A DNA stretch of 64,000 nucleotides from an uncultured Chloroflexia bacterium (GCA_963748625.1 CAVVJT010000007.1:864001-928000); one strand, 5' to 3'. Numbered from the stretch's first letter, positions 6,836-27,754 are shown. The notes: generated from the letters alone by a model not told the origin. Program-made: numbers and translations.

Positions 6836-6997
6836 GGGTCGCGGGTCCTCCAGGGCCGGCGACCTCGCAGCTGCCTCAGCTGGGCCGTGGCACGACGGCG
6901 CCGGTGGACCCGACTATAGCCACCCGTTCGAGGCCGGGCTCGCCGGCGCCCCGCCGAAGCCGGCATCGCGGCCCGGTCCGACGCCGGTGACCGGGGT

Positions 6998-7227
6998 CCT
7001 GCTCGGCACCGCGCCCCGGTCGGGCTCCGCGGCCTGCTCGGCACCGCGCCCCGGACGGGCTCCGCGGCCTGCTCGGCACCGCGCCCCGGTCGGGCTCCGC
7101 GGCCTGCTCGGCACCGCGCCCCGGTCCGAGTTCGCGGCCTGCTCGGCACCGCGCCCCGGTCCGAGTTCGCGGCCTGCTCGGCATCTCGCCCCGGTCCGAG
7201 TTCGCGGCCTGCTCGGCATCTCGCCCC
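6998..7227. repeat. 35-bp tandem repeat CCTGCTCGGCACCGCGCCCCGGTCGGGCTCCGCGG, about 6.5 copies
   Basis: Units start at 6998, 7033, 7068, 7103, 7138, 7173 and 7208; no spacers; variants are polarised along the array. Confidence 0.9.
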
Positions 7228-7367
7228 ACGTGGGGGCCGTTTCGCGCGATCGCCCGCACGACCTGCGCAGCAAACCTCGACTTCCGTGCCCGGACCACGC
7301 TCAGAACCCGCCGATTCGGCTCCCAGGTGGGGGGCGCGCAGAGATCTGGAGCGCGATGAGGTAGAAG

Positions 7368-7442
7368 TGGTCGGGGCGGTGGGATTCGAACCCACAGCCT
7401 CGTGCTCCCAAAGCACGTGCGCCACCGTTGCGCCACGCCCCG
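7368..7442 (-). tRNA. tRNA-Pro (UGG)
   Basis: CGGGGCG-TG-GCGCAACGGTGGCGC-A-CGTGC-TTTGGGA-GCACG-AGGCT-GTGGG-TTCGAAT-CCCAC-CGCCCCG-A-CCA: complete cloverleaf with encoded CCA. Confidence 0.95.
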
Positions 7443-7560
7443 ACAGGTTTCGTGCTCAGGAAGCGCATGTGCTTCCTGATTTCGGCCTCGCGGCTGGGCC
7501 TACACCGCTCCAATCGCATATGCTGGTCCTGCGGGAACCCATCTAGCGACCGGAGTTGGC

Positions 7561-8511
7561 GTGGTCACATCGCCGTCCAGCGAGCCCCATCATACGGCCC
7601 TCCCGGACCTCGTCCCGTTGCTTGCGTCATGGCGGCGGCATCTCGCCGCCCAACGGATGAGCCCGGCCACCCTCTCCACCTACTCTGCGGCGGTTGGCCA
7701 GCTCGACAAGTTCCTCGAGGCGCAGGCGATGCCGAGAGCGGTCGCTGCGATCCGGCGCGAGCATGTCGAGGCCTTCATCACCCACCTGCTGGGCAAGTTC
7801 AAGCCGAATACGGCCCACAACAGGTTTCGGGGGCTGAAGACGTTCTTCGCGTGGCTGGTGGACGAAGGTGAGATCTCCGATAGCCCCATGGCGCGGATGA
7901 AGCCCCCCAGGCTCACCGAGGAGCCCCCGCCCGTCCTCCGGGAGACGGACTTCACCCGCCTGCTCGAGGTCTGCGAGCGGGACAAGACCTTTGTCGGCCG
8001 CCGCGACGACGCCATCCTCCGCGCGTTCATCGACACCGGGGTCCGGCGCGGCGAGCTGCTCGGGCTGAAGCTCGAGGACGTGGATCTCGATCAGGGCCTC
8101 CTCAGGGTCACCGGCAAGGGGAGCCGCACCAGGATGGTGCCCGTGGGGGCCAAGACGGTGCGCTCGATCGACCGCTACCTGCGCGCTCGCAGCAAGCACC
8201 CCGACGCTGCTCGCCCCGAGCTGTGGCTTGGCCGGCGTGGGGTCCTGCGAGAGTCAGGCTTGGGGGACCTGATCCGCGACCGGGGCAACGAGGCCGGGCT
8301 CACGCTGCGCCTGCATCCGCACCTGTTCCGCCATGCCTACGCCCACTCGATGCTGGCCGCCGGCATCCAGGAGACCGACCTCATGGCGGTCGTCGGCTGG
8401 AAGAGCCGCGAGATGGTGTCCCGCTACGCGGCATCCACCCGGGCCGAGCGGGCCATCTCTGCGGCCCGGAAGCTCAGCCCTGTTGACCGGCTCGACGAGA
8501 CCAGGCGGTGA
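7561..8511 (+). CDS. Tyrosine recombinase/integrase, XerC/D-sized
   Basis: N-terminal SAM-like region (SPATLSTY); catalytic R (DTGVRRGELLGL), K (GKG), HxxR (HLFRH), W (VGW) and Y (SRY). Divergent from tRNA-Pro, 118 bp away. Confidence 0.93.
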   Translation: MVTSPSSEPHHTALPDLVPLLASWRRHLAAQRMSPATLSTYSAAVGQLDKFLEAQAMPRAVAAIRREHVEAFITHLLGKFKPNTAHNRFRGLKTFFAWLVDEGEISDSPMARMKPPRLTEEPPPVLRETDFTRLLEVCERDKTFVGRRDDAILRAFIDTGVRRGELLGLKLEDVDLDQGLLRVTGKGSRTRMVPVGAKTVRSIDRYLRARSKHPDAARPELWLGRRGVLRESGLGDLIRDRGNEAGLTLRLHPHLFRHAYAHSMLAAGIQETDLMAVVGWKSREMVSRYAASTRAERAISAARKLSPVDRLDETRR

Positions 8512-8933
8512 AGGGCGACCTGATCGAGACCGACTGCAGGGCCTGCGGTCAGCTCGTCCACATCGTCGAGGGTGGTGACTGCCCGGCCTGTGGCGCGGGC
8601 CCGGCTGTGCCCTCGGATGAGCGCGTCACCATTGTCAGCGGCCGTGCCGTGAAGGTCCCGAGGGACTTCTTCGGACGACAGGCAATGTGGCTCAGCACCA
8701 GACCCGCACGCCAGACGATCGCCGTCGACAGCAGGCGGCGGGTTCGAGATGTCCCATCTCCTTCCAGGAAGCGGCGACGCGGGCGGATTTCAGGCGATCG
8801 TGCTTGGAAGGCCGTCCTATCGCGCATAGGCCCGCGAACCTCCAACAACCGGCCACAGCCGTTCGTTACGCTACCGGTGGCAGTTGACCGCGCACCCCCG
8901 GTGCGGCGAGGGGCGTCGAGCAGAGGGCAGCCG

Positions 8934-9755
8934 ATGGAGTTTCTGATCCTGACGGTGTTCTGGGGGTGCATCTGGGGCGCCCTATGTGCCTGGTTGGCGG
9001 GCGAGAAGGGCCGCGACGGAACGACCTGGTTCGTCCTAGGCTTCCTGTTCTCTCTTGTCGCCTTGCTCGTGCTCGGCTTCTCACCGTCAGGCGAACCGCC
9101 GCAGACCGTCGCGAGATCAACTGCCACGTTCGGGTCGCTCGACCTGGCACGCACACCACCGCCGGCGAGGGCGAGCACGTCCGGGGCACCAAGAAGCAAT
9201 GCCTCGAAGCGGTGCCCGGACTGCGCCGAGGAGGTGAAGGCCGAAGCCAGGATCTGCCGGTTCTGCCGCTATGAGTTCCCACCGACGCCAGAACCTCAGT
9301 TCGAGCCCGAGTCGGCCGCCGACGAGCAGTTGCTGCCACCAGTCGTGCTGGACCTGGGGCGCTGGGAGATGGCGTCTGCGGACACCGGCTTCCGGATGGG
9401 CGAGACCATCACTCTGTGCCGTGATGGCACGGCCCTCGAGGTCCGCTCCGCGCGGTTTACACGCCGGATCAGCATTCCCGACCGCGACCGCATCCAGGCC
9501 GAGGCCGACCGCCTGCGAGTCTACGATCCGATCTATGCGATGTCGTTCGCACCCTTGGACTCCCAAAGCACGTGCGCCACCGTTGCGCCACGCCCCGACA
9601 GGGAACTAGGCTACACCGCTTGCTCGTTGGGCCACCGGGCAGACGGCGCAGGAGTCACGCCGATACCGCCCCGTCGGCAACCGCCTACGGAGAGCGTCCG
9701 ACGAGAAGCAGCACGACAGCCGGAACGAGGCCGACCGCGACCACCAGCGAGATGA
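8934..9755 (+). CDS. Membrane protein with a zinc ribbon; C-terminus reads through the att core (probably truncated)
   Basis: MEFLILTVFWG...GRDGTTWFVLGFLFS (2 TM) and KRCPDCAEEVKAEARICRFCRYEF. From 9560 the frame translates the tRNA fragment (SQSTCATVAPRP). An in-frame upstream start at 8508 with two CxxC motifs is possible. Confidence 0.6.
   Translation: MEFLILTVFWGCIWGALCAWLAGEKGRDGTTWFVLGFLFSLVALLVLGFSPSGEPPQTVARSTATFGSLDLARTPPPARASTSGAPRSNASKRCPDCAEEVKAEARICRFCRYEFPPTPEPQFEPESAADEQLLPPVVLDLGRWEMASADTGFRMGETITLCRDGTALEVRSARFTRRISIPDRDRIQAEADRLRVYDPIYAMSFAPLDSQSTCATVAPRPDRELGYTACSLGHRADGAGVTPIPPRRQPPTESVRREAARQPERGRPRPPAR
9560..9599 (-). repeat. tRNA-Pro 5'-half copy 1 (att core; no left arm, atypical right flank)
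   Basis: 40/40 identical to 7405-7444. Confidence 0.92.
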
Positions 9756-10539
9756 CGGCCATCGGGCGGAACCAGGTGAGGCAGCCTGCGTGCTCCCTGT
9801 CCACAATCCTGCCTTCCGATCCGTAGAGCCGCCTCAACGCCCGGCTCTCGCGTCGCTGAAGCGCCTCGAAGTCCCGAACGCTGAGACCCAGCGCCAGCGC
9901 TTCGGCCTCAACCCGCAGTTGATCGCCGTCCCGCATCTGGCGCTCGTACTCCTCCATCGGGATCAGATCGCCCCTGGGGCCCCGCGAGCGTTCAAGGTCG
10001 GAGTACCTCCGCACCCGATCGCTCCGCTGCCGCTTGAGGTTCGCCATGTACTCCAGATAGGTGACCCCAGCCGCGCGAGCGGCGGCAGCGTACAGCTCGC
10101 GCCGCTGTGCATCCTGGGCCTCGAGCACCGGCAGCAGCCGGAGGCGAAGGGCGTTGTAGTCCCGCCGGTACTCCGCGACACGAGCCCAGGCCGCGTCCTG
10201 GTAAGCCTCGGTGCCTTCTGCCGCCCGGGCGCGTCGGTGCCACCACTTCGCCTCGTAGTCGAGCCGCCACAGGGCTGCGTCGGCGGTCGCCCAGCTGGGC
10301 TCACGCGTGAGCGTGCCCGAGCAGTCCGGGCATGTCCTGAACGTGCCAGGGCTCCACCGCTCGCAGTCGACGCAGACGGGCATGCCGCGAGTCTTGTGGG
10401 GGTCGATCACCGCAGGCCAGAGCCGATCGTCCCAAGTCGGCGGCATCGGCCGGCGCGGCAACCTCCTGAACACAGGCTCGAAGGGATGCTCCGGGCACCA
10501 GATGCACGTGTCAACGCGGCCGCGGGAGGCGGCGGCCAT
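9685..10539 (-). CDS. Hypothetical protein with a Cys4 zinc finger and C-terminal TM helix (unit 2 cargo)
   Basis: CVDCERW...CPDCSG, a helical middle region and a hydrophobic C-terminus; the only long plausible ORF in the unit. Start uncertain. Confidence 0.5.
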   Translation of the reverse strand: MAAASRGRVDTCIWCPEHPFEPVFRRLPRRPMPPTWDDRLWPAVIDPHKTRGMPVCVDCERWSPGTFRTCPDCSGTLTREPSWATADAALWRLDYEAKWWHRRARAAEGTEAYQDAAWARVAEYRRDYNALRLRLLPVLEAQDAQRRELYAAAARAAGVTYLEYMANLKRQRSDRVRRYSDLERSRGPRGDLIPMEEYERQMRDGDQLRVEAEALALGLSVRDFEALQRRESRALRRLYGSEGRIVDREHAGCLTWFRPMAVISLVVAVGLVPAVVLLLVGRSP

Positions 10540-10582
10540 GGAGCACGTCGCCTAGGAGGTGACCGAGTTGTTGTCCGTGATT

Positions 10583-10744
10583 GTGCTCGCGAAGCCCCTA
10601 ATACTCGGTGCCTACGCCGCTCAGCAGTTCGTGCTTGGAGGGGCCGACCCTACCCCGCATAGGCCCCAGCGGCTCCCAAAGCACGTGCGCCACCGTTGCG
10701 CCACGCCCCGACAGATTCCACGCTCAGGAAGCGCAAGTGCTTCC
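10583..10744. repeat. Full att-like site: left arm, tRNA 5'-half core (10673-10712), right-arm palindrome
   Basis: Core 40/40; arms align with the sites at 11877, 17470 and 20311. Confidence 0.9.
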
Positions 10745-10847
10745 GCACGAGCCCCACAAGGCTAGCCTGCCGCGCGGCGCTCCCGGGTGCTGCAACAGGG
10801 CCGGCTCCTGCGTCGTCATATGCACGCGTCCGCGGAAGGCAGGGGTC

Positions 10848-11849
10848 ATGCGGCGACACCTCCATCTTCTCGTCATGACGGCGATCCTCATCGGATGTGG
10901 ACCGGCTGGCCGGGAGGCGGCGGCTCCTGATCCGTCGATCCTGAACCCCAGGATCGCGTCGCCGGGTATGTTCGGGTCCGGTGGCCAGTCACAGGAGCCC
11001 TCCCTCAGGCCGTCGACCGCGCCGACGACCGGGCCATCGATGGCACCCTCATCATCGCCCGTGACGACACCATGCCCTGCAGTCTCGCCAGCCGCGGTCG
11101 CAGGCACCCGGGTCCGCCCGAAGGTGGACAGCCTCGCCGCCGTGATGACCGACAGCCTTCGCGTGCGGTCACAGCCCGGGCTCGCGGCAGACTCGAAGGT
11201 GCTGCACCGGAGGCTCATGCGCCGCGACGTGGTGTACGTGGTGGCGGGGCCGGTCTCGGCATCGTGCTACGCCTGGTACCAGGTCTACATCCCGTACGAC
11301 CCGGCACACGACCGGGACGAGACGTTCGGATGGGTCGCTGCGGCCAGCATCGAGGGCGAACCGTGGCTCGTCGGCGGTCAGCACCTCTGCCCAGAGCCGC
11401 CCAGGACCGTGTCGGACCTGGCTGACCTGCCGAGCAGCGTTGGCCTGGCGTGCTTCACAGGGCGACGGCTCACCTTCGAGGCATGGCTGGGCACCTACGA
11501 GACGTGCGGGATGTCCGAGGGGTGGACCATCGAGCCTCGCTGGCTTGGCGACACCTGCGCCGGCAACGACTACATGTGGATCGCCGACCGGAGAGCTCGT
11601 AACGCCAGCGACTTCGGCGCGAACGAGCCGGTCCCCGCCGTCATCGCGCCGAAGGTGGACACGTCGCGATTCCACCCGGGCAATCTGCCGAAGGAGTGGA
11701 TCCCAGTCAAGGTGACCGGGATCTTCGACCACAGGGCTGCGAGATCGTGCCACGGCGTCTCCGAAGGGGAGACCGTACCGATCACCGACGACCAAGCCGT
11801 CCTGCAATGTCGCGCCGAGTTCGTGATCACCTCGATCCAGAGGCGATGA
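10848..11849 (+). CDS. Lipoprotein with an SH3-like domain (unit 3 cargo)
   Basis: Lipobox AILIGC, Pro/Ser/Thr linker, TDSLRVRSQPG...GPV...WYQV...GWVAA; paralog of 25297-26262. Confidence 0.75.
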   Translation: MRRHLHLLVMTAILIGCGPAGREAAAPDPSILNPRIASPGMFGSGGQSQEPSLRPSTAPTTGPSMAPSSSPVTTPCPAVSPAAVAGTRVRPKVDSLAAVMTDSLRVRSQPGLAADSKVLHRRLMRRDVVYVVAGPVSASCYAWYQVYIPYDPAHDRDETFGWVAAASIEGEPWLVGGQHLCPEPPRTVSDLADLPSSVGLACFTGRRLTFEAWLGTYETCGMSEGWTIEPRWLGDTCAGNDYMWIADRRARNASDFGANEPVPAVIAPKVDTSRFHPGNLPKEWIPVKVTGIFDHRAARSCHGVSEGETVPITDDQAVLQCRAEFVITSIQRR

Positions 11850-11876
11850 CCGCCGACCAGTAGTCGCCGTCGACCC

Positions 11877-12075
11877 GTGCTCGCGTAGCCCCAAATAGTC
11901 GGTGCCTACACCGCTCGGGGATCCACGCTCAGGACCACCGATCCTACAACGCTTACGCCCCCGGGACCCCCAAAGCGCACGTGCGCCACCGTTGCGCCAC
12001 GCCCCGACTGATTTCGTGCGCAGAAGCGCCTGCGCTTCGCGAGCGGCGCCCACAAGCCTTGCCTGCCGTGCTCCC
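11877..12075. repeat. Full att-like site; core 11967-12008 has a 2-nt insertion and one substitution
   Basis: CCCCCAAAGCGCACGTGCGCCACCGTTGCGCCACGCCCCGAC with both conserved arms. Confidence 0.88.
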
Positions 12076-12312
12076 AGCGCACGATGCGTGCCTGCGGGAG
12101 GGCAGCCTGGGCCCGGCGTGGTCGCCGGTCCGGGGCCCTTCGCCTCTCGACACTCCGGCGCGTCACGATCATCGTTGCCGCCAGCAAGACACATCGATGC
12201 GTGGCCCATACCAAGGGCCGCTGGACCCCGCTGAGCCACCGATCGGCCGCACCGGAAGGGCGTTCCCGGCGACACCGTGTAGCAGATCTGCTCCCGGACG
12301 CATCTATAGGGC

Positions 12313-12852
12313 ATGAACGGTCAGGTGATGGGCGGTCAGAGGGTCGTCACCACGGTCGAGCTCGCGGGGGCCGGCGACGAGGCGGCCTTCGCCCAGTTGG
12401 TGGCGACCTATCACGCCGACATGGCCCGGGTCGCGTTTGTCGCCTGTGGCGACAGGGACCTGGCCGAGGACGCGGTCCAGGCGGCCTGGCTCGTCGCCTG
12501 GCGCAAGCTCCACTCGCTGCGGGATCCAGATCGGGTCCGCCCATGGCTCCTCTCGGTGACCGCCAACGAGGCCCGCCAGATCGTCCGCCGGCGCCGCGGT
12601 CCGGTCATCGAGATCGATGTCGAGGCGGCCGGCGATCCCCGCGGCGACCCGTCGGACGGTATCGAGCGCCTCGACCTCCGCCGGGCGCTGGCGCACCTCT
12701 CGCCCGACGACCGCACCCTGCTCGCCATGCACTACCTCGTCGACCTCAGCTCGGACGAGCTCGGCGCGGCCGTCGGCACGTCGTCGTCGACCGCCCGCAC
12801 GCGGCTCTCACGGGCCGTCGAGCGCCTCAGGAAGGAGCTCCGCGATGGCTGA
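12313..12852 (+). CDS. ECF sigma factor (unit 4 cargo)
   Basis: AGDEAAFAQLV...LAEDAVQAAWLVAWRKL.SLRDP....PWL and region 4 TARTRLSRA. Confidence 0.9.
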   Translation: MNGQVMGGQRVVTTVELAGAGDEAAFAQLVATYHADMARVAFVACGDRDLAEDAVQAAWLVAWRKLHSLRDPDRVRPWLLSVTANEARQIVRRRRGPVIEIDVEAAGDPRGDPSDGIERLDLRRALAHLSPDDRTLLAMHYLVDLSSDELGAAVGTSSSTARTRLSRAVERLRKELRDG

Positions 12853-14650
12853 TCGCGATCGCTTCGAGCTCGACCTCGCCGTGGCTCTCCGCGCCTACGC
12901 GGAGGACGCGCCGACGCAGATCCGTCCGACGGAGCTCGCCCGGCACTTCGCCACTGCGTACCCCCACGGGCGAACCGCGATCGGTCGCTGGGGTCTGGTG
13001 GCCGTCCCGCGCCGCGCCTGGGCCCTGCTCCTGCTAGCGGCCCTGCTCGCCGCGATGCTCGGCGGCATGAATCTCGTCGGCTCGCCGATGCTGCGAAGGC
13101 TCCCGGCCGTCGTGACGCCCGTCGGCCAGGTGTTCGAATGTCCGACCGGATCGACGCCCGACGAGCCCGGCCCGATCGACCAGGCCCGGCCGGCCCATGA
13201 ACCGGCAACACTCTCGGCGATGGCGTTCGACCGCCGGGCCGGCAGACTCGTGACTCTCGCGGACATCCTCACGGGCGACGAGGTCACTGGCACCCAGACG
13301 TGGACGTTCGACGTGTGCACGAACACCTGGACGCGTATGCACCCGGACCGGGAGCCGCCCAGCTCAAGCCATGGGCTCGTCTACGACGTCGACTCCGACG
13401 TGACGATCCTGGTCACCGCCCGGGAGGTGTGGGCCTACGACCTCGGGGCCGACACCTGGACGCTGAAGGGCTCCGTCCCTCCGTTCGACCCGACGGCTTC
13501 CGACCTGGCGGCGTCCTGGGCCTACGACCCGGTCACGGGCCTGGTCGTCACCGCGGCAGCGGAGTTCGCCGCGGGACCCGACTACAGAGCCCGTCCGCCG
13601 CGGCTCTGGACCTACGACGTCGCCACCGACACGTGGACGCCGATCCGCCAGGACAGCCCGCCGGCCTCCTGGGATCGCGGTGTGGGCTTCGCCTACGACG
13701 CGTCAGCGGACAGGTTGATCGCGTTCGGCGTCTATCAATCGACGGGACGCCGGGACGAGACGTGGACCTTCGACCTCCGCACCGGCGCCTGGTCGAGGGC
13801 CGGCGCCGACACGCCGCAGATCGTGGGCGTATGGGGGATGGCAGAGTATCCCCCGGTGATGGTCTACGACGAAGCGGAACAGCGGACCCTCGTCTCCGGC
13901 CATGGCGGCCTGGCCGCTTACGATGCGACCGCGGATCGCTGGGAGAACCTGAACGGGATCGATGCCCGTCAGGGATCGGTCGAGTTCGGCGAGTTGGGCC
14001 CCTCAGCCGAGTGGTCAATGGACATGTACGACTCCGTGAACGGACGGCTCGTCGGCCTCGGCGGCGGCAACGGCATCTGGGCGTTCGACCCGGCGACCGG
14101 CCAGTGGACAGTCCTGCTCGAAGGGCGTGAGGTGGTGAACCCACCGACCGACGACGAGGTGGGTATGGCCGTGTCACCTCGGCCGGGCTGGGCCCCGGAG
14201 CTCGAGGCGCTGCTCCCTTCGAACGTGGACGGCGTGACGTTCACGAAGACGAGCGTGGCCGGCCGGCCTCTCTCGACCCGCCTCGGCAAGGGCGGTTGGG
14301 GGTCGGTGCCGCTCGGGTCCGACGAGCTGAACCCGTTCCTGGGTGACCACGGGAAGGGACTCACCGACCTGAGCATCGCCGTCGCGACCCCGATCGATCG
14401 GTCGCGGGCGGACACCTTCGCCATCGCGTTCCAGGTGAAGGGCGTCGAGGCGACGGAGTTGGCCAGGCTCCTGGCAGACCCCTACACCGCCATCGACGCG
14501 AGGTCCGCCATCGTCGGCGGGAAGGAGGTCCAGAGAATCCGGGAGACCCGGGGGATGGGCTTCGACCTGTACGTCAAGGACGATGTCCTGTTCTACGTCT
14601 TCACCGACGGCACCCCGCTCATCGACGGGATCGTCGCGGCCCTGCCCTGA
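12845..14650 (+). CDS. Putative anti-sigma factor with TM helix and extracellular Kelch-like beta-propeller
   Basis: Overlaps the sigma stop codon; TM WALLLLAALLAAMLGG; repeated TWTFD..T.TW and WAYD...DTW blades. Confidence 0.75.
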   Translation: MADRDRFELDLAVALRAYAEDAPTQIRPTELARHFATAYPHGRTAIGRWGLVAVPRRAWALLLLAALLAAMLGGMNLVGSPMLRRLPAVVTPVGQVFECPTGSTPDEPGPIDQARPAHEPATLSAMAFDRRAGRLVTLADILTGDEVTGTQTWTFDVCTNTWTRMHPDREPPSSSHGLVYDVDSDVTILVTAREVWAYDLGADTWTLKGSVPPFDPTASDLAASWAYDPVTGLVVTAAAEFAAGPDYRARPPRLWTYDVATDTWTPIRQDSPPASWDRGVGFAYDASADRLIAFGVYQSTGRRDETWTFDLRTGAWSRAGADTPQIVGVWGMAEYPPVMVYDEAEQRTLVSGHGGLAAYDATADRWENLNGIDARQGSVEFGELGPSAEWSMDMYDSVNGRLVGLGGGNGIWAFDPATGQWTVLLEGREVVNPPTDDEVGMAVSPRPGWAPELEALLPSNVDGVTFTKTSVAGRPLSTRLGKGGWGSVPLGSDELNPFLGDHGKGLTDLSIAVATPIDRSRADTFAIAFQVKGVEATELARLLADPYTAIDARSAIVGGKEVQRIRETRGMGFDLYVKDDVLFYVFTDGTPLIDGIVAALP

Positions 14651-14700
14651 CGTTGGCGGAACCGCCATCGACCGTGAGAGCGTCCCGAAGGAGAGAAGGG

Positions 14701-14982
14701 ATGAAGGCGCGCAGCTCGCCCGTTCGGCTGCTGGTCGCCCTGGCCTGTCTGGCCCTGCTGGCCGGGTGCGCCGCCCCCGCGAGTCCGACTCCAGCTTCGG
14801 CAACCCCGGATTTCAGCGAGCCTCCCCTCGGCGGCGGTCACGACACCGGCGACTGCCACAACGGCTACCACGGCCCCCACGCCGGCTCCCACACCGAGCG
14901 TCGAAGTGGCGGTTCGTGCTTGGAGGGGCCGACCCTACACCGCATAGGCCCCAGCGGCTCGGGCACCTCGCCTCTGGCCTGA
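14701..14982 (+). pseudogene. Truncated lipoprotein gene fused to an att left-arm half-site
   Basis: Good signal peptide and lipobox (LALLAGC) and SD, but the frame runs into the arm sequence at 14912-14960 and stops. Confidence 0.55.
14912..14960. repeat. Orphan left-arm half-site with no tRNA core
   Basis: 48/49 identical to 10627-10675; identity stops after the first 3 nt (CTC) of the core. Confidence 0.88.
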
Positions 14983-15005
14983 AACACCGGGAGGGCCGTG
15001 GCGTC
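14980..15005 (+). promoter_or_regulatory. ECF-type promoter TGAAAC-N16-CGTC
   Basis: Matches the canonical AAC/CGT ECF promoter pattern, immediately upstream of ECF gene 15014. Confidence 0.6.
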
Positions 15006-15013
15006 TCATCGCC

Positions 15014-15586
15014 GTGGATCCCGTGATCTCTCCCCTCGAGGCGGTCGATGCCGCAGGCGCCCACCGCGCCGCGCAGGCGGATGCGGCCGTCGTGGCCGCG
15101 TGGACCGCCCACCACGCGGAGGTCTTCGCGTTTCTCGTCCGGACCACCCGCAGCCCGGAAGCTGCCGAGGATCTCCTCCAGGAGGCGTACCTGCGCCTGA
15201 CCACCGAGATCCGGGCCGGCCGGGCGCCGGACAACACCCGGGCCTGGCTCTACCGCGTGAGCGCCAACCTCGCGGTCAGCCGCGGGCGGCGCCTCTCGGC
15301 CGCCTTCCGGGGGATCGTCAGGATCCGCAGCACCTCCGCGCCACTCACGACGACCTTCACCCCGGAGGCGAGCTACCTCGGTCGCGAGGGCCGGGCCGGC
15401 CTCCTCGCGGCCCTCGCGGACCTGGCGCCCGATGCCCGGGCCGCGCTCCTGCTGTCGGCCGAGGGCTTCACCGGTGCCGAGATCGCCGCCGCGATCGGGC
15501 GCTCCGATGCCGCAACCCGGACCCTGCTCTGCCGGACCCGCGTCCAGGTCCGTGGCCGGCTCGAAGGGGCGGAGGCCGTCCGATGA
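15014..15586 (+). CDS. ECF sigma factor
   Basis: AAEDLLQEAYLRL...RAWLYRVSANLAVS and EIAAAIGRSDAATRTLLCRTR. Confidence 0.9.
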   Translation: MDPVISPLEAVDAAGAHRAAQADAAVVAAWTAHHAEVFAFLVRTTRSPEAAEDLLQEAYLRLTTEIRAGRAPDNTRAWLYRVSANLAVSRGRRLSAAFRGIVRIRSTSAPLTTTFTPEASYLGREGRAGLLAALADLAPDARAALLLSAEGFTGAEIAAAIGRSDAATRTLLCRTRVQVRGRLEGAEAVR

Positions 15587-17424
15587 CGTCCCACGACACG
15601 TTCCTGCAGCTCGCCGCCATCGCGGTCGACTACCCGCTCTCGTCCGGCGATCGCGGCCGCCTCGAGGCGCACCTCGCCTCGTGCCCGGCCTGCGCCCGCT
15701 CGGCCCACGGCTTCCGGGCCGACGCCATCGCCTTCGGGGACCTGCCGCCCGCCGTCCTGCCGGAGCGCCGCGGGGCCGAGATCCTCGCCGCGGCCATGCA
15801 CCCGGCGACCGTCCGGCACCCGCTCCGGCTGGTGCTCGTCGCCGCCCTGCTTGCCCTGCTGGCCCTCGGCTCGCTCGTCGCCGGGGCGGAGCTGCTACGG
15901 CGGAGCCAGGACGACGACCTCTCGGTCGTGCCCCCGGTACCGACGGAGACGCCCGTCGCGACGGAGACGCCCGGCCCGGTGCCGTCGGCCTCGGTCATGC
16001 CGTCGGTCTCCCTCGCGCCGTCGGCCCCGCCGGTGAACAGGCCCGTGGTCACTCCGGCCTCGTTGCCGCTGCCATCGGGCTCCGTCTCGCTCGCACCGGC
16101 CGCGGCCGGCGGCGTCTGGGTCCTTGTGAACGACCTGCCCAACCTCTCCAGTGAGTCGGGCCGAGCGGTCCTCGCGCTTCTCACCAAGGACGGCGAGCCC
16201 GCCCCGGGCTGGCCGCAGGAGATCCAGGATGTGGACTGCAGCATGTGGGCCGGCAGCGAGTGGGCCGGCATCCCGGCATCGCCGGCGTCGCAGCTGCCGG
16301 TTGTCGCCCCGGACGGCAGCGTCCGCCTCCTGTGCTGGACGGCACCCCCGGATGCGACATCAGCCGTGTTCGCGCTCTCGTTCGACGCCGCCGGCGCAGC
16401 GTCCCCCGGATGGCCGGTCATGCTGCCGTCTGACCCGGTCGACGCCCGGCTGATCGACGACACGCTGGTCATTGCGACATCTTCGCTGACCACCGACGCT
16501 GAGGGGAACGTGCTGGAGGTCGAGTATCGGATCCTGCGGATCAGCGCGGCCGGGCAGCTCGAGCAGGGTCAGGCGGTTGCGCCGGTCGATCTGGGGAACT
16601 ACGCGCCGAACCTGAGGATAGATGGGGCGCCGAACCTGGCCGCCGATGGGGTCGCGTTCCTCAGATGGGTCCGTGACGAAGGCCCCGAACCGGCAACCGA
16701 CATCCTGGCGTTTGGGTTTGACGGCGCACTGCCGGGCTGGCCGGTCTCGGTGCCCGGAATCGTCTCGGCCGTCGTCACCGGGCCGGATGGGCGCTACTAC
16801 GCGACTGCCTCGGCGAGGGCCAAGGATGCGGACGCGCTCGCCCCAAGCCAGAAGCTCGTCGCGCTCACCCCCAGCGGGACGCTGTCCGTCGGGTTGGATC
16901 TGCCCGTGGCTGGAATCTCCGCGGCCACGTTTGCGGGCGGGTACGCACCGCTCAGGCCCACGCTCGGGCCCGGCGGATCCGCGTGGGTCCCGGGCGTCAA
17001 CACCCGCGACAACGTCGTCGTCCACGCGCTCGGACCGGACGGCATGGTCCGCGACGGGTGGCCGTGGCGGGCCGGTGCGCCTATCGAGGAGCAGGGCGAG
17101 TGCGGGCAGGGCGAGACAGGATGCGGCGTGTGGCGGACCGTGCCAGCCCTCGGACCCGGTGAGGTGCTCCTGGTCCTCCTGGGGCCGGCTGATCGGACGA
17201 GCGGCGGGCAGGTCGTCGCGGTCGGGCCGGATGGGCGGGTCGTTGACGGCTGGCCGGTGACGCTCACGAACCCGGCCGGGCGCTGGGATGTGGTGGTGGC
17301 CGGCACCGACGGGACGGTCTACGCGACGGCGATCGAGTCCGGCGCCCGCACGTCGACGACCACGCTTCTCGCGATCGCGCCGGACAGCGAGGTGGTCTGG
17401 CGGTCGACGCTCGTCGGCAAGTGA
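15583..17424 (+). CDS. Zinc-binding (HxxxCxxC) anti-sigma factor with TM helix and extracellular repeat domain
   Basis: ATGA overlap with the sigma gene; HLASCPAC; TM; repeated (P)GWP motifs of a propeller-like domain. Confidence 0.82.
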   Translation: MTSHDTFLQLAAIAVDYPLSSGDRGRLEAHLASCPACARSAHGFRADAIAFGDLPPAVLPERRGAEILAAAMHPATVRHPLRLVLVAALLALLALGSLVAGAELLRRSQDDDLSVVPPVPTETPVATETPGPVPSASVMPSVSLAPSAPPVNRPVVTPASLPLPSGSVSLAPAAAGGVWVLVNDLPNLSSESGRAVLALLTKDGEPAPGWPQEIQDVDCSMWAGSEWAGIPASPASQLPVVAPDGSVRLLCWTAPPDATSAVFALSFDAAGAASPGWPVMLPSDPVDARLIDDTLVIATSSLTTDAEGNVLEVEYRILRISAAGQLEQGQAVAPVDLGNYAPNLRIDGAPNLAADGVAFLRWVRDEGPEPATDILAFGFDGALPGWPVSVPGIVSAVVTGPDGRYYATASARAKDADALAPSQKLVALTPSGTLSVGLDLPVAGISAATFAGGYAPLRPTLGPGGSAWVPGVNTRDNVVVHALGPDGMVRDGWPWRAGAPIEEQGECGQGETGCGVWRTVPALGPGEVLLVLLGPADRTSGGQVVAVGPDGRVVDGWPVTLTNPAGRWDVVVAGTDGTVYATAIESGARTSTTTLLAIAPDSEVVWRSTLVGK

Positions 17425-17469
17425 CGCCAAGCCCACCCGTCAGCGCTGCCGGCAACACGGCTGTCTGTC

Positions 17470-17631
17470 GTGCTCCCGTAGCCCCGAATAGTCGGTGCCT
17501 ACGCCGCTCGGCTCGCCACGCTCATGACCCCCGACCCTGCACCGCATAGGCCCCGGGGACTCCCAAAGCACGTGCGCCACCGTTGCGCCACGCCCCGACT
17601 GATTTCGTGCTCAGGAAGCGCATGTGCTTCC
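17470..17631. repeat. Full att-like site; core 17560-17599
   Basis: Core 40/40; right arm TTTCGTGCTCAGGAAGCGCATGTGCTTCC is identical to the leader of the intact tRNA. Confidence 0.92.
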
Positions 17632-17865
17632 GGCTCGAGTCCGATGTGCCGAAGCTACAGCGCTTCCTCGTCGGCGTGCGCCGGCCGATCTGGCCGTGCC
17701 GGAGCGCGCAGCGCCATTCCATGAGCCCGAGTGCTCTCGCGCAACACCTGGATGCGGCCGATCGTTTCAGCAACGGCGGCGAGACTGGAGTCGAAGCCCG
17801 CGAGCCGGGCTCGGCCGCAGGGCGACCGGTCTCAGCCGGCAACCCAGCGTCCCGAGGAGTGCGGG

Positions 17866-20196
17866 ATGAACGGCATGGCCAGCCGGTGGTGCATCAGGAC
17901 TTCGGCCTGGTGGTTGTTCAGCCTGATCGCGGCCCTGCTCGCGGCTGGCTGTGCCGACGGAACCCCGGTGAAGCCCACTCCGCCCGTCGAGCCACCGGCC
18001 ACGATCGAGCCGGCAGTGACATCGGGGCTGCCCGCGCCAACGCCGACCAGCTCGCCGGCCCCCACACCGAAGCCCGGCTGGAACCAGGCCGCGCCCATGC
18101 CGCGCGAGCGAACCGGGTTTGATGCGGTGCTCATGGGCGACGGCACCGTCCTTGTGGTCGACGACGATCCGTCCAGCGACCTTGCTGCGCCAGGGAGCGA
18201 GCTCGTGGACGTGTACGACCCTGCGACTGACACCTGGCGCCCGGCCGAGAGCCTGAACAAGCCGCGAGCTGGCGCGGCCACGGTGGTACGCCCGGATGGG
18301 ACGGCGCTCGTGATTGGGGGGACCAACAGCGATGGGCAGGCATTCTCCAGCACGAAGGTCCTCGCCACGACGACGACCAGCTGGGAGGCGGGGCCACTGA
18401 TGAAGGTCGCGAGGATGTCGCCCGAGGCCGTGGTCCTGGGCAATGGTCACGTCCTCGTCGTGGACCAGACGGACAGCCGCCCGGTCACGACCACGAGCGA
18501 GCTCCTCGGCCCCCGCGGGAAGGCATGGACCACCCGCCGGACGCTGTCCGGCCATGTCGTCGCCGTCGACGCCCTCGTGCGGGCGGGCAACCACGGTGCG
18601 CTGGCCCTCGGCTGGGAGCGCGATGCCCATGTTGCTGACTCGATGCAGCCGGCGGCCCGCTACTACGACGCGTTCTTCGACACCTGGAAGACGGTCCCCG
18701 TTCCGAAGCTGCAGGTGCAGCCGGCGCTCGTCACGCTCCCCGACGGCAGGGTCCTCGCCGTCGGCGGCAACGGCGGCGGCGAGCTGGTGGGTCACCCGAA
18801 CACCCTGGCCACCGTCAGGGTGTTCGACCCAGCCCGGGCGAAATGGACGAATCTGGCGCCGATGGCGGAACCGCGCGAGAGCGCGCAGGTGGCGATGCTC
18901 GCCGACGGACGCGTGCTCGTCGCGGGCGGCATGCAGCGGACCACAGACGGCGGGCCGCCGCCGATCCTCGCATCATCGGAGATCTACGATCCAGGCACGG
19001 ACAGCTGGTCAACGGGCCCCGCCCTGCTCGAGCCGCGCGCCGGTGGCGCTGCGGTCACCCTTCGAGACGCGACGGTCCTCGTGCTCGGCGGGCAGGGTCT
19101 TATGGGCAGCCTCGTCACGGTCGAGCGCTTGTGGCTGGACGCCTCCACTTCCGCAGGACGGGAGCTCAACCCGACGCTCCTGCACTGGGACGCGATCGGG
19201 CAGCTTCCCTCGGAGGATGAAGGGCAGCTCATCGGCTTCGACAAAGGCTATGTCTACGTGGGCTACAGGGTGTGGTTCTCACCGGACGGCATGAGCTGGG
19301 AGGTGATCGAGCCACAACGCGCGATCTGTGACGACCCGGACTCGACCGCTCTCATCGCCAGCATCGTGTGGGCAGGAGCAACCGACGGCCACGAGGTCAT
19401 GCTCGTCGGATACCAGCTCGACGACTGCGTAGGGGGTTCACCGACGCCAGCCTCGTGGATCACGTCCGATGGCGTCACGTGGGAGCAGTCCCCGGCGGTG
19501 GAGCTGTCGAGGGGCTCTGGCGACATGCGCGAGGTGTGGGCAGTGCCGGACGGCTGGGAGGCGAGTGTCTACCTGCACAAGACCGACGACTTCGCTCGCT
19601 GGATCTCGATCGACGGCCTGACGTGGCAGAGCGCCCGGGCCCTGCCCGTCGATCTCAGCGCTGTGGCGCCTGACGGCACCCGAGTCGGCATCCGCCATCG
19701 CAAGACCGGAAGGAAGGAGACCCTCGTCGCGTCGACCGATGGACAGGCGTGGCGGGTCATCGACGCGCCCGTGCGCGGCGGGGTGGGTGCCGTGGTGCCA
19801 CCGGCGGCCGCCGGAGACCCGTGGATCGTGGTCAGCGAGACGGAGACCCAGTTGACGTTCGCCGCCTCGCGCGACCTTGTCCACTGGTCCTCGGTCTCCA
19901 CTCCGTACGCGTTCATCGACGGCATCACGCAGGCCCCACGTGGAGTCTTCCTGCTGTCGAGCGAGCCGTGCTGGGAAGGCCTTGGCGCGGGCCCTGCGCC
20001 GAGCGCGGGGCCTCCAGACTGCCCAGCGGACGGCGAGGTCGTGATCGACCTGCACATGAGCGCCGACGGTCTGCGCTGGGTGGATGTCGTCACCCCGGGC
20101 CCGCTCGTGGCAATCGCCGATGGGCCCGCTGGGACGCTGGCGGTCGAGTGGAACGACGGCAGCGGCGCTACGCGCGTCTGGCGCCTGGATCAGTAG
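17866..20196 (+). CDS. Kelch-repeat lipoprotein with a second Asp-box-like domain (unit 5 cargo)
   Basis: GAGGAG SD, lipobox LLAAGC, Kelch blades (LADGRVLVAGG...SEIYDP.TDSW), then S.DG..W repeats. Confidence 0.82.
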   Translation: MNGMASRWCIRTSAWWLFSLIAALLAAGCADGTPVKPTPPVEPPATIEPAVTSGLPAPTPTSSPAPTPKPGWNQAAPMPRERTGFDAVLMGDGTVLVVDDDPSSDLAAPGSELVDVYDPATDTWRPAESLNKPRAGAATVVRPDGTALVIGGTNSDGQAFSSTKVLATTTTSWEAGPLMKVARMSPEAVVLGNGHVLVVDQTDSRPVTTTSELLGPRGKAWTTRRTLSGHVVAVDALVRAGNHGALALGWERDAHVADSMQPAARYYDAFFDTWKTVPVPKLQVQPALVTLPDGRVLAVGGNGGGELVGHPNTLATVRVFDPARAKWTNLAPMAEPRESAQVAMLADGRVLVAGGMQRTTDGGPPPILASSEIYDPGTDSWSTGPALLEPRAGGAAVTLRDATVLVLGGQGLMGSLVTVERLWLDASTSAGRELNPTLLHWDAIGQLPSEDEGQLIGFDKGYVYVGYRVWFSPDGMSWEVIEPQRAICDDPDSTALIASIVWAGATDGHEVMLVGYQLDDCVGGSPTPASWITSDGVTWEQSPAVELSRGSGDMREVWAVPDGWEASVYLHKTDDFARWISIDGLTWQSARALPVDLSAVAPDGTRVGIRHRKTGRKETLVASTDGQAWRVIDAPVRGGVGAVVPPAAAGDPWIVVSETETQLTFAASRDLVHWSSVSTPYAFIDGITQAPRGVFLLSSEPCWEGLGAGPAPSAGPPDCPADGEVVIDLHMSADGLRWVDVVTPGPLVAIADGPAGTLAVEWNDGSGATRVWRLDQ

Positions 20197-20310
20197 GGAC
20201 GGTGCAGCTCGGTGTTGCCGACGGTGATCCTCGTCGGCGCAGCCTGCTTCGTGGCCACGACAGCCCTCGCGTCGAGAACGACCTCCTGGGGAGTGGACCA
20301 CGCGCCCGGC

Positions 20311-20520
20311 CCGCTCGCGTAGCCCTCAATGATCGGCGCCTTCACCGCTCGGCGGTTCGTGCCTGAAGGGGCCGAGGGTAGACCGCTCAGCTCCGCGAGG
20401 CTCCCAACGCACGTGCGCCACCGTTGCGCCACGCCCCGACAGGTTTCACGCTCAGGAAGCGCATGTGCTTCGTGAGCGACGACTCGAAGCCTTGCCTGCC
20501 GTGCTCCCGTCGCACGATCC
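20311..20520. repeat. Full att-like site; core 20401-20440 (last clear copy)
   Basis: Core 39/40; the right arm extends to GCCTTGCCTGCCGTGCTCCC, shared with the 11877 site. Confidence 0.9.
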
Positions 20521-20552
20521 GGATGCCGTGCCGCGGCCGCGCGGCCCTTCTT

Positions 20553-27622: not shown

Positions 27623-27754
27623 GCTGCCCCGTCCTGCCGGTCGGCACCAGTCCGCCGGCGACTGTCCGTTGCTCTCCATACGCCCCGTGAGACGGGTGGC
27701 CGGGGACCGATGTTGCCCGGGGTCGAGAAGTCGGCGGGGTCGACCGGGTGGCAC

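What the first reader, a model, noticed from the sequence alone, without database searches (positions are those of the whole stretch)
7368..20520. tRNA-Pro-anchored, integron-like cassette array delimited by 5'-half-tRNA att sites
Seen: the 40-bp core CTCCCAAAGCACGTGCGCCACCGTTGCGCCACGCCCCGAC (reverse complement of the tRNA from its 5' end through the anticodon loop) occurs in direct orientation at 7405 (intact tRNA), 9560, 10673, 11967, 17560 and 20401. Core-to-core units are 2155, 1113, 1294, 5593 and 2841 bp. Only the first unit encodes a tyrosine recombinase; the rest carry one gene or ECF/anti-sigma pairs and no mobility genes. Established: tyrosine integrases often cross over in tRNA anticodon loops, but they usually duplicate the 3' part of the tRNA, and tandem islands usually bring their own integrases. 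Inference: one recombinase captures, excises or shuffles small non-autonomous cassettes at a tRNA-derived site, behaving like an integron but without IntI or attC.
Basis: partly seen in the sequence, partly recalled or inferred. Interest (0 to 1): 0.95.

Follow-up and report, generated by a model that had tools for sequence, protein, structure and literature searches.

The report
Gene-cassette array at tRNA-Pro
A soil/freshwater Chloroflexota genome has stacked six small mobile gene units, only one with its own recombinase, at a proline tRNA gene by repeatedly replacing the front half of that gene; this is a new variant of a known way of building genomic islands.

Summary
Six direct copies of the 5' half of tRNA-Pro(TGG), from anticodon loop to 5' end, lie at 7405-20440. 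They occur nowhere else in the 4.6-Mb genome.

The first unit holds an arm-less, Xer-like tyrosine integrase. The other units hold cargo only: ECF sigma/anti-sigma pairs, Kelch proteins and unknowns. Each is bounded by a conserved ~95-nt left arm, the core, and a ~75-115-nt right arm.

The integrase belongs to a large Chloroflexota (Limnocylindria) family. In 64 of 80 related loci it sits 59-152 bp from the 5' end of a tRNA. Distal repeats there cover tRNA positions 1 to about 40. Complete relatives usually carry a replication gene next to the integrase; this window has none.

Integrase-less units of 0.9-5.4 kb with the same arms are common. None of 13 complete units in metagenome contigs has an integrase. 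Distal sites occur in 42 of 301 family genomes, some with no family integrase at all. Between contigs, near-identity starts exactly at the core.

Best reading: tandem accretion of cis/trans-mobilisable cassettes, like CIMEs, tycheposon islands or Dehalococcoides ssrA islands. It is integron-like in layout but is not an integron. Three of the seven junctions here are damaged, and no excision was observed.

The parts
7368..7442 (-). Intact tRNA-Pro(TGG). Its 5' half (7405-7442) is core copy c1.
   Evidence: ARAGORN; Rfam RF00005 68.4 bits; exact core
7445..7560 (.). Right arm R1. It spans the 117 nt between the tRNA 5' end and the integrase start, and holds the conserved block CGTGCTCAGGAAGCGCATGTGCTTC and a CCTACACCGCTC motif. 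It is presumed to carry divergent tRNA and integrase promoters (inference).
   Evidence: (D2). The same block lies upstream of tRNA-Pro in relatives without elements (L001, L002, L008, L009). No sigma-70 consensus was found.
7561..8511 (+). Simple (arm-less) Xer-like tyrosine integrase, 316 aa.
   Evidence: Pfam Phage_integrase 1.2e-25 plus SAM-like N-domain. XerC model 158.5 bits, below the 335 cut-off. Catalytic R, K, H-x-x-R, W and Y are invariant in 6 homologues. It is the only copy in the genome.
8508..9755 (+). ORF with an N-terminal zinc ribbon, two TM helices and a second zinc ribbon. It reads through core c2, and the GC3 coding signal stops at about 9600. It is not a conserved hallmark gene.
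   Evidence: Only L018 shares its N-terminus.
9560..9599 (+). Core c2 (exact). It has no canonical left arm. Its right arm appears to lack about 50 nt but keeps CTACACCGCT at 9609-9618.
   Evidence: Logan contigs place full right arms in front of 9601/9606 (table 5c). Compare the right arm of L107.
9685..10539 (-). Cassette 2 cargo: 284-aa protein with no family match and a C-terminal TM segment.
   Evidence: GC3; no Pfam or NCBIfam match; translation
10581..10790 (+). Junction 3: left arm (10581-10672), core c3 (10673-10712, exact) and right arm.
   Evidence: nhmmer 1.7e-45
10848..11849 (+). Cassette 3 cargo: predicted lipoprotein. Its start is inferred from the signal-like MRRHLHLLVMTAILIGCG.
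   Evidence: Homologues occur in 50 of 301 family genomes, the best at 48% identity.
11872..12088 (+). Junction 4: left arm, core c4 (about 11967-12008, with a 2-nt insertion and one change in the loop/stem) and right arm.
   Evidence: (D4, D5, D8)
12313..14650 (+). Cassette 4a cargo: ECF sigma factor (12313-12852), then a Kelch-repeat protein in the ORF 12617-14650 (putative anti-sigma partner; exact start not determined).
   Evidence: Pfam; GC3. Window 11876-13124 is 85% identical to metagenome contig L124, which has a different left neighbour.
14909..14960 (+). Junction remnant: a left arm only. The core and right arm (about 153 nt) are deleted, which fuses cassettes 4a and 4b.
   Evidence: 96% identical to 10624-10675 (D6); nhmmer 5e-10. 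L107 has the intact left arm, core and right arm in front of a 90%-identical cassette 4b.
15014..17424 (+). Cassette 4b cargo: ECF sigma factor (15014-15586) and zf-HC2 anti-sigma factor (15583-17424).
   Evidence: Pfam; NCBIfam antisigma; GC3
17466..17675 (+). Junction 5: left arm, core c5 (17560-17599, exact) and right arm.
17731..20196 (+). Cassette 5 cargo: 821-aa Kelch-repeat protein.
   Evidence: Pfam
20310..20521 (+). Junction 6, the distal end of the array: left arm, core c6 (20401-20440, A>C in the anticodon loop) and a right arm resembling the native tRNA-Pro upstream region of relatives.
   Evidence: Window 20400-20518 is 86% identical to the tRNA-Pro upstream region of G201. No further att-like site was found in the window.

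Best explanation
The locus is a tandem array built by site-specific recombination at tRNA-Pro(TGG), by a family of small integrative elements of Limnocylindria (Chloroflexota).

How the family works. Its integrase is a simple, arm-less, Xer-like tyrosine recombinase that most likely crosses over in the 7-nt anticodon loop. Unlike most tRNA-targeting elements, each element carries the 5' half of the tRNA plus about 115 nt of upstream sequence (the right arm). Integration therefore rebuilds an intact tRNA from the host's 3' half and the element's 5' half. The old 5' half is pushed away and becomes the distal boundary. Each new arrival at the tRNA pushes older units outward.

The array here. It holds one integrase unit next to the tRNA (7445-9559) and five or six integrase-less cargo units. 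These keep the family's attP-like arms (left arm, core, right arm). They are best seen as cis/trans-mobilisable passengers (CIME-like). They were either delivered together with an integrase unit that can leave on its own, or moved in trans.

What is shown: the anatomy, the family-wide 5'-side rule, the modularity of cassettes, and arrays without an integrase.

What is inferred: the crossover point, promoter supply by the right arm, sequential accretion, and mobilisation by the integrase.

In this genome the array is partly fossil, because three of seven junctions are damaged (c4, c6, and the deleted core at 14960).
For: Anatomy:
- Six direct cores, all at one locus.
- An intact tRNA at the proximal end.
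- One integrase only.
- Arms conserved at 64-84% (left) and 71-82% (right), while the cargo is unrelated.

Family-wide pattern:
- 315 relatives were found in genome contigs. Of the best 80 loci, 64 have a tRNA on the opposite strand 59-152 bp upstream of the integrase start. Seven have it on the same strand, 8 are at contig edges and 1 has none.
- The distal repeat covers tRNA positions 1 to about 36-41 in 14 of the 5'-side loci. It covers positions 28/32 to the 3' end in 2 of the same-strand loci.
- The same holds for genus relatives at tRNA-Val, tRNA-Ala and tRNA-Gly.
- Integrases cluster by tRNA target: 26 label changes against a shuffled mean of 52.7, as low in 0 of 200 shuffles (quick tree).
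- Replication genes lie next to the integrase in relatives (REP_ORF2-G2P in L031; Replic_Relax homologues in 12 integrase loci).

Cassette pool:
- All 13 distal tRNA-Pro sites aligned share the left-arm motifs.
- 47 metagenome contigs hold distal-type sites. Their 13 complete units (0.9-4.5 kb) include none with an integrase, and 10 cargo ORFs scanned from 8 of these units match diverse families.
- Distal-type sites occur in 42 of 301 family genomes and 15 of 49 genera, with 0 control hits.
- Five genomes with 2-4 such sites have no family integrase at E<=1e-40. The same query does find it in G000, G204, G208 and G210.
- Six fetched stretches of these arrays, from five genomes, show no integrase or replication gene.

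Recombination at the core:
- L137 and L143 are 98-99% identical from the core rightward, about 80% in the left arm, and unrelated beyond it.
- The same cassette follows the intact tRNA in L122 but follows a left arm and core in L133 (95% identity).
- L120 has an integrase unit behind a distal-type site.

Decay:
- An integrase truncated to about 23 codons at tRNA-Pro of G210 (L005), and a second integrase fragment in L079.
- Core-less left arms in the window, L122 and L154.
Against: - No excision product, circle junction or empty site was seen. The only read data available were Logan contigs from runs holding at most 0.11 of the sampled words. Their joints are low-confidence.
- No metagenome contig was circular.
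- Different neighbours around a shared cassette can arise from independent later integrations. They can also arise from RecA-type recombination between the 40-nt identical cores, without any trans-mobilisation.
- The window's integrase unit lacks the family's replication gene and the canonical left arm at c2, which the model does not explain.
- Homologues of cassette 3's cargo in other genera were not att-flanked in any of 7 loci fetched.
- Promoter function of the right arm is unsupported by the consensus scan. That scan is uninformative for this phylum.
- The integrase's activity is untested.
Confidence: 0.68

Rival explanations
1. A true integron-like platform. A resident recombinase next to a tRNA-derived primary site captures, excises and reorders integrase-less cassettes as its normal function.
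For: There is one integrase and several small att-bounded cargo units. Integrase-less units are the majority in metagenome contigs (0 of 13 with an integrase). Integrase-free arrays resemble CALINs. Most cargo reads in the integrase's direction: 8 of the 10 ORFs picked, and 7 of the 8 cargo genes in the window's cassettes 2-5.
Against: The integrase is not IntI (TIGR02249 48.1 bits against a cut-off of 265). It is itself bracketed by cores c1 and c2, and in L120 it lies behind another unit. In relatives it is linked to replication genes, so it is an element gene and not a chromosomal platform. Most loci carry a single element. No attC-like conserved hairpin was found. Each cassette carries its own ~115-nt right arm instead of sharing one promoter.
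Confidence: 0.2
2. An inert fossil. Each unit was once a complete element with its own integrase, lost by deletion. Nothing in the array moves any more.
For: Integrase truncation and fragments occur in relatives (L005, L079). In the window, c4 has an insertion and c6 a substitution in the crossover region. One junction lost its core and another about 50 nt of its right arm. There is no replication gene in the window.
Against: No integrase remnant exists in any of the five cargo units, even at E<=10. In the window, five of the six distal junctions keep the left arm and four keep the right arm, which random deletions removing an adjacent 950-nt gene would rarely allow. Four cores are identical over 40 nt. 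The same integrase-less architecture recurs with unrelated cargo in many genomes.
Confidence: 0.12
3. An assembly artefact, or a dispersed repeat family unrelated to recombination.
For: Repeats can be collapsed or chimerically joined in MAGs. G000 has 7.74% estimated contamination.
Against: The copies differ in their arms (64-84%) and flank unique genes on a 1.34-Mb contig. Comparable arrays occur in many independent assemblies, with att copies 80-90% identical within a contig. All six copies are at one locus and in one orientation.
Confidence: 0.02

Closest known systems
Tandem accretion of integrative elements with cis-mobilisable elements (CIMEs); Dehalococcoides ssrA genomic islands (PMC3146451, passages read)
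   Same: Both are arrays of islands at one RNA gene in Chloroflexota. The islands are separated by direct repeats of the target, and extra conserved sequence lies next to the repeat. Many islands lack an integration module (15 in that paper). The authors interpreted those as CIME-like passengers moved with their neighbours.
   Different: Those islands use a large serine recombinase (DsiB), a 20-bp repeat of the 3' end of ssrA, and larger islands. Here there is a simple tyrosine recombinase, a 40-nt 5' half of a tRNA, ~95-nt and ~115-nt arms, and units of 1-5 kb.
Tycheposons of Prochlorococcus (bioRxiv 10.1101/2020.12.28.424599, passages read; supplements not seen)
   Same: Both have tRNA-specific tyrosine recombinases that cluster by target tRNA, including Pro-tgg, Ala-ggc, Arg-tct and Met-cat. 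[quoted passage not shown] Neighbouring elements are separated only by a partial tRNA, and remnants and extra partial tRNAs occur in the islands.
   Different: The host phylum differs. Whether the integrases are related was not tested. The passages read do not say which tRNA half tycheposons duplicate. Long arrays of very small integrase-less units with conserved arms are not described in the passages read.
Integrons and CALINs (recalled, no paper read here)
   Same: One recombinase with many small integrase-less cassettes of diverse function, mostly in one orientation. Arrays without an integrase exist.
   Different: No IntI and no attC hairpins. The sites are double-stranded tRNA-derived att sites with arms. 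The integrase sits inside a unit. Each cassette carries its own promoter-bearing arm.
Integration into the 5'-distal part of tRNA genes (Zhao and Williams 2002 and archaeal cases, as cited in PMC6563490; the 2002 paper itself is not held)
   Same: The element replaces the 5' part of the tRNA and so reverses the usual orientation.
   Different: Those were isolated cases, described as 'considerably less frequent'. Here it is the rule for a family with hundreds of members.
Simple (arm-less) element-borne tyrosine recombinases such as Brujita integrase (PMC8138268, passages read; PDB 5vfz hit)
   Same: Core-binding plus catalytic domains only, about 316 aa, and borne by a mobile element.
   Different: Only 33-37% identity to actinophage integrases. 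Subgroup membership was not tested. The att sites here have long conserved arms even though the integrase has no arm-binding domain.

Membership tests
Integron | IntI-type integrase | tested here: not met
   NCBIfam TIGR02249 48.1 bits (cut-off 265); NF011946 27.2 bits (cut-off 435)
Integron | attC sites (imperfect palindromes recombined as folded single strands) | tested here: not met
   The sites are a tRNA 5' half plus arms. RNAalifold on 13 sites, both strands, gives only the D-arm and a short right-arm palindrome. Rfam finds only the tRNA. IntegronFinder was not available.
Integron | Integrase outside the array, next to a primary site attI | tested here: not met
   The integrase lies between cores c1 and c2. 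In L120 an integrase unit follows a distal-type site.
Integron | Small integrase-less cassettes of varied function in an array | tested here: met
tRNA-targeting integrative element with tyrosine integrase | Tyrosine recombinase with the catalytic residues | tested here: met
   Pfam PF00589 1.2e-25; R, K, H-x-x-R, W and Y invariant in alignment A2
tRNA-targeting integrative element with tyrosine integrase | Intact tRNA at one end and a direct repeat of a tRNA segment at the other | tested here: met
   Family-wide.
tRNA-targeting integrative element with tyrosine integrase | Usual orientation (3' part of the tRNA duplicated) | tested here: not met
   The repeat covers tRNA positions 1 to about 39. 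This is the reversed, 5'-distal type.
CIME / tandem accretion | Unit flanked by the att sites of a neighbouring integrative element but lacking a recombinase | tested here: met
CIME / tandem accretion | Excision alone or together with the neighbouring element | not testable with these tools
   Only Logan contigs with small shares were available.
Tycheposon | Member of the tycheposon-specific tyrosine recombinase lineage | not tested
   No tycheposon integrase sequence was fetched.
Tycheposon | Inward-facing integrase at the tRNA end, optional replication module, cargo | tested here: met
   The replication module occurs in relatives only, not in the window.
XerC/XerD chromosome dimer resolvase | Score above the equivalog cut-off | tested here: not met
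   XerC 158.5 bits against 335.15; XerD 150.5 bits against 329.6. A separate distant Xer-like gene lies at C4:69616-70491.
Simple (arm-less) tyrosine recombinases | Core-binding and catalytic domains only, no N-terminal arm-binding domain | tested here: met
   316 aa; SAM-like domain at residues 20-102 and catalytic domain at 125-294. Best solved relatives are XerD, XerA and Brujita Gp33.

The most novel reading that the evidence does not exclude
Limnocylindria possess a tRNA-anchored gene-cassette system that does the job of an integron by other means. A pool of 1-5-kb integrase-less cassettes exists, each carrying a composite site: a left arm, a tRNA 5' half, and a promoter-bearing right arm. 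A minimal shuttle unit carries an arm-less, probably directionless tyrosine integrase, with or without a replication gene. The shuttle inserts, excises and reshuffles the cassettes in trans. It comes and goes, leaving integrase-free arrays behind.
Probability: 0.35. Interest if true: 0.8.

Novelty: new variant of a known kind. Interest (0 to 1): 0.62.

Why it matters
This would give Limnocylindria, an abundant but uncultured soil and freshwater class, a defined mechanism for acquiring accessory genes. The cargo seen includes regulators, transporters, methyltransferases and conflict systems.

It also turns 5'-half tRNA integration from a rarity into the rule for a recombinase family with hundreds of members.

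Finally, it offers a compact system for testing two questions. One is how a tyrosine recombinase without an arm-binding domain uses long conserved arms. The other is whether cassette arrays can evolve independently of integrons. The components are a 316-aa integrase and an att site of about 250 bp.

Tried and rejected
Read evidence. The look-up of sequencing runs gave 16 runs, each holding at most 0.11 of the sampled words. Read laying on X1, X2, X3 and X6 (Logan contigs, min_likeness 90) gave many short pieces and low-confidence joints. There was no clean circle or empty-site junction, so nothing is claimed about excision from these data. Some contigs put a full right arm plus 16-20 nt in front of 9601/9606. 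I used this only as a hint that c2's right arm is shortened.

Synteny. The flanks of tRNA-Pro in 11 loci from genus relatives share almost nothing with the window at DNA or protein level. The exception is a MoxR-like gene in G210. An empty-site comparison was therefore not possible.

Cargo tracing. Homologues of cassette 3's lipoprotein occur in 50 of 301 family genomes, at 48% identity or less. Seven loci were fetched, and none had an att site or integrase. This gave no evidence for movement of that cassette.

Second ORF as a hallmark gene or excisionase. Only L018, and weakly L054 and L032, share parts of it. Rejected.

Left arm as a structured RNA. No conserved structure was found.

Promoter and terminator consensus scan. 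There were 0 promoter-like sites. This is uninformative for this phylum.

Circular metagenome contigs. None were found.

Other points. The ARAGORN 'tRNA-Arg' at 17143-17231 is not supported by Rfam. Supplementary files were not consulted; Supplementary Doc. 1 of the tycheposon preprint may show which tRNA half those elements duplicate. Zhao and Williams 2002 is not held and is cited only through the reference list and text of PMC6563490. Claims that this family is not in print rest only.

Full report
1. THE OBSERVATION

The 40-nt core matches exactly at 7405, 9560, 10673 and 17560, and with one mismatch at 20401. Shuffled sequence gives 0.00 matches. The sixth copy, near 11967, carries a 2-nt insertion and one change. 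It was therefore missed at up to 3 ungapped mismatches but recovered by the repeat finder. Start-to-start spacings are 2155, 1113, 1296, 5591 and 2841.

ARAGORN and Rfam place an intact tRNA-Pro(TGG) at 7368-7442 on the minus strand. The repeat is therefore the tRNA from its 5' end to the anticodon loop. The complete 4.63-Mb assembly (10 contigs; the window is C7:864001-928000) has these six copies and no others.

2. ANATOMY

The genome has about 70% G+C, so genes were called by third-position G+C and annotated with Pfam and NCBIfam.

- Unit 1 (7445-9559) holds a 316-aa tyrosine recombinase. It has only a SAM-like core-binding domain and a catalytic domain. It scores well below the XerC, XerD and IntI cut-offs. 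A zinc-ribbon/TM ORF follows it and runs through core c2.
- Unit 2 has one minus-strand gene with no family match.
- Unit 3 has a putative lipoprotein.
- The 5.6-kb unit has two ECF sigma/anti-sigma pairs.
- The last unit has an 821-aa Kelch protein.

tblastn with the integrase finds a single hit in the whole window, even at E<=10.

Copies 3-6 share a ~95-nt left arm and a 75-115-nt right arm. A profile built from 13 distal sites finds a further left arm at 14909-14960 with no core. A metagenome contig (L107) carries a 90%-identical copy of the cassette that starts at 14959. In L107 it is preceded by an intact left arm, core and right arm. The window has therefore lost about 153 nt there, and the 5.6-kb unit is really two cassettes.

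Core c2 has no canonical left arm. Its right arm looks like the canonical one minus about 50 nt.

The array thus has seven junctions, of which:
- c1, c2, c3 and c5 have perfect cores;
- c4 and c6 are altered in the anticodon loop/stem;
- one has lost its core.

3. ORGANISM AND CLOSE RELATIVES

Titles of related records name Candidatus Limnocylindrales/Limnocylindria, in Chloroflexota.

Among 12 genomes of the same genus, the core 32-mer (up to 2 mismatches) occurs 0 times in 3, once in 7, twice in G208 and three times in G210. It occurs in 0 of 8 genomes of the sister family. The flanks of tRNA-Pro are not syntenic among these genomes.

Integrase orthologues (66-69% aa identity) sit in the same place beside tRNA-Pro in G207 and G051. 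G208, G210 and G206 have integrase-less units with the same left and right arms.

Paralogues (52-53% identity) sit beside tRNA-Ala(GGC), tRNA-Val(GAC) and tRNA-Gly(TCC). Copies of those tRNAs' 5' halves lie 13.9 kb and 24.6 kb away, or at contig ends.

4. THE INTEGRASE FAMILY

A scan of 185,579 species genomes with an alignment of six integrases gave 315 relatives. The best 80 loci were analysed. Their layout:

| Layout relative to the integrase start | Loci (of 80) |
|---|---|
| tRNA on the opposite strand, 59-152 bp upstream (integrase on the tRNA's 5' side) | 64 |
| tRNA on the same strand | 7 |
| Contig starts less than 250 bp upstream | 8 |
| No tRNA | 1 |

Targets on the 5' side are Pro-tgg (21), Val-gac (17), Ala-ggc (10), Gly (6), Arg (4), Thr-cgt (3), Lys (2) and Met (1).

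Within the 10 kb available, 14 of the 5'-side loci show a distal direct repeat of tRNA positions 1 to about 36-41. Two same-strand loci show a repeat of positions 28/32 to the 3' end. The family therefore recombines at the anticodon loop. Most members carry the 5' half.

A quick maximum-likelihood tree groups the integrases by target tRNA. The labels need 26 changes, against a shuffled mean of 52.7, and 0 of 200 shuffles were as low. All 7 same-strand members fall in one 8-row clade (the careful search did not finish).

Next to the integrase, relatives often carry a replication gene. L031 has REP_ORF2-G2P, and L024 and L039 have Replic_Relax. Replic_Relax homologues occur in 12 integrase loci and none in the window.

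The nearest phage proteins are arm-less actinophage integrases at 33-37% identity. The nearest solved structures are XerD, XerA and Brujita Gp33.

5. THE CASSETTE POOL

All 13 distal tRNA-Pro sites aligned share these left-arm motifs: GATAAyCGG, two CTnCACCGCT repeats and CACGCTy. The arm ends in GGCT or GACT next to the loop.

A pattern specific to distal sites found 47 metagenome contigs:
- They contain 13 complete core-to-core units of 0.9-4.5 kb, none with an integrase.
- In two contigs the unit next to the intact tRNA lacks an integrase.
- One contig (L120) has a full integrase behind a distal-type site.

Ten cargo ORFs from 8 of these units were scanned against Pfam. They match a Zn-dehydrogenase, an HTH-IrrE regulator, ThiF, a TPR protein, two methyltransferases, an ABC transporter pair, a PMT_2 glycosyltransferase and a Kelch-esterase. 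Elsewhere, G208's unit carries Schlafen/AlbA_2 and TOTE primase-helicase conflict genes, and L024's second unit carries a Fic protein.

Within a contig the att copies are 80-90% identical, so they are not assembly duplicates.

In 301 family genomes, distal-type sites occur in 42 (15 of 49 genera), with no hits to the reversed control pattern. Nine genomes have two or more. Five of those nine (G079, G284, G175, G154, G098; 81-94% complete) have no family integrase at E<=1e-40. The same query does find one in G000, G204, G208 and G210. The array stretches fetched from four of them (G079, G175, G284, G098) and from G155 show two or three core-to-core units each, with no integrase or replication gene.

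6. SIGNS OF RECOMBINATION AT THE CORE

- L137 and L143 are 98-99% identical from the first base of the core rightward. They are only about 80% identical in the left arm and unrelated further left.
- A cassette that follows the intact tRNA in L122 follows a left arm and core in L133 (95% identity).
- L119 and L131 share a left cassette but differ in the right neighbour.
- Window cassettes 4a and 4b have 85% and 90% relatives in contigs. In L124, the relative of 4a has a different left neighbour; in L107, the relative of 4b follows an intact att junction.

These patterns fit site-specific exchange at the anticodon loop. They are also compatible with independent later integrations, or with homologous recombination between the identical cores. 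No excised form was seen.

7. INTERPRETATION

The locus is best read as tandem accretion at tRNA-Pro of a family of small integrative elements that reverse the usual tRNA orientation.

The right arm is also present upstream of tRNA-Pro in relatives without elements. It is therefore presumably the promoter region that an element must bring when it replaces the 5' half. This is an inference, and one search is uninformative on it.

Integrase-less units keep both arms and dominate the arrays. This fits passengers that are moved with, or by, an integrase unit that can leave alone. In the window that unit is bracketed by two perfect cores.

Decay also happens. G210 has a truncated integrase at tRNA-Pro and L079 has an integrase fragment. 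Core-less left arms occur in the window, L122 and L154.

8. COMPARISON WITH WHAT IS KNOWN

- Recombination with the 5'-distal part of tRNA genes is described as 'considerably less frequent' than with the 3' part. Arrays formed by re-use of one site are known (PMC6563490, passages read).
- Dehalococcoides ssrA islands are tandem. Fifteen of them lack an integration module and were interpreted as CIME-like (PMC3146451, passages read).
- Tycheposons have tRNA-specific integrases, neighbouring elements separated by partial tRNAs, and remnants (bioRxiv 10.1101/2020.12.28.424599, passages read).
- Element-borne simple tyrosine recombinases are the minority: 27 phages against 410 with arm-binding types (PMC8138268, passages read).

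Searches for Limnocylindria plus integrase and the other literature searches found no description of this family.

The finding is therefore a new variant of a known kind. It is integron-like in layout but fails the integron membership tests.

9. VERDICT

- Observation: confirmed.
- Interpretation: partly supported.
- Interest: 0.62.

The most novel reading not excluded is a true trans-acting cassette system with a shuttle integrase (probability about 0.35).

Noticed in passing
window 6928-7277: A 35-bp tandem repeat lies between a MoxR-like ATPase gene and the 3' end of tRNA-Pro. TRF reports 6.6 copies at 95% match (6998-7227); the repeat finder extends it to about 10 copies. The period is not a multiple of 3.
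   Followed up: no
window 17143-17231: ARAGORN calls an 89-nt tRNA-Arg(CCT) inside the anti-sigma ORF. Rfam does not support it at gathering score, so it is probably a false positive.
   Followed up: partly
window 25333-26259, 26399-27754, 30887-31519: Genes just beyond the array resemble cassette cargo. One is a paralogue of the cassette-3 lipoprotein (35% identity). One is a Kelch-like protein. One is an ECF sigma factor, 47% identical to the sigma factor in a cassette of L031. No att remnant was detectable around them, so they may be older, fixed cassettes.
   Followed up: partly
G000 C2:263090-263134, C10:1405600-1405630, C4:775223-775269, C7:1271787-1274101: The same genome holds other tRNA-fragment repeats. 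tRNA-Thr(CGT) has a 3' half 18 kb away and a 5' part at a contig end. tRNA-Gly(TCC) has a 3' half 1.2 kb away. There are two 28-nt 3' ends of tRNA-Arg(CCG).
   Followed up: no
L058, L074, L086: One tRNA is flanked on both sides by family integrases (44-49% identical to the query), one on its 5' side and one on its 3' side. In L058 a 3'-half repeat lies 9.4 kb away on the 3' side.
   Followed up: no
L003 8639-13020 (G208): The integrase-less 4.7-kb unit at tRNA-Pro of G208 carries a Schlafen AlbA_2/HATPase_c_4 protein and a TOTE-type AEP primase fused to a helicase. These are conflict-system genes carried as cassette cargo.
   Followed up: no
L122 1194-1312; L154 8350-8448: Left arms without a core lie inside units of other arrays. 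This is the same kind of junction decay as at window 14909-14960.
   Followed up: partly
window 20525-20545: A terminator-like hairpin followed by a T-rich tail lies directly after the last right arm.
   Followed up: no
L143 and L149: Two metagenome contigs share two blocks at 98.5-99.9% identity, but in the opposite order around an att site. This suggests a rearranged or permuted array. It was not resolved.
   Followed up: partly
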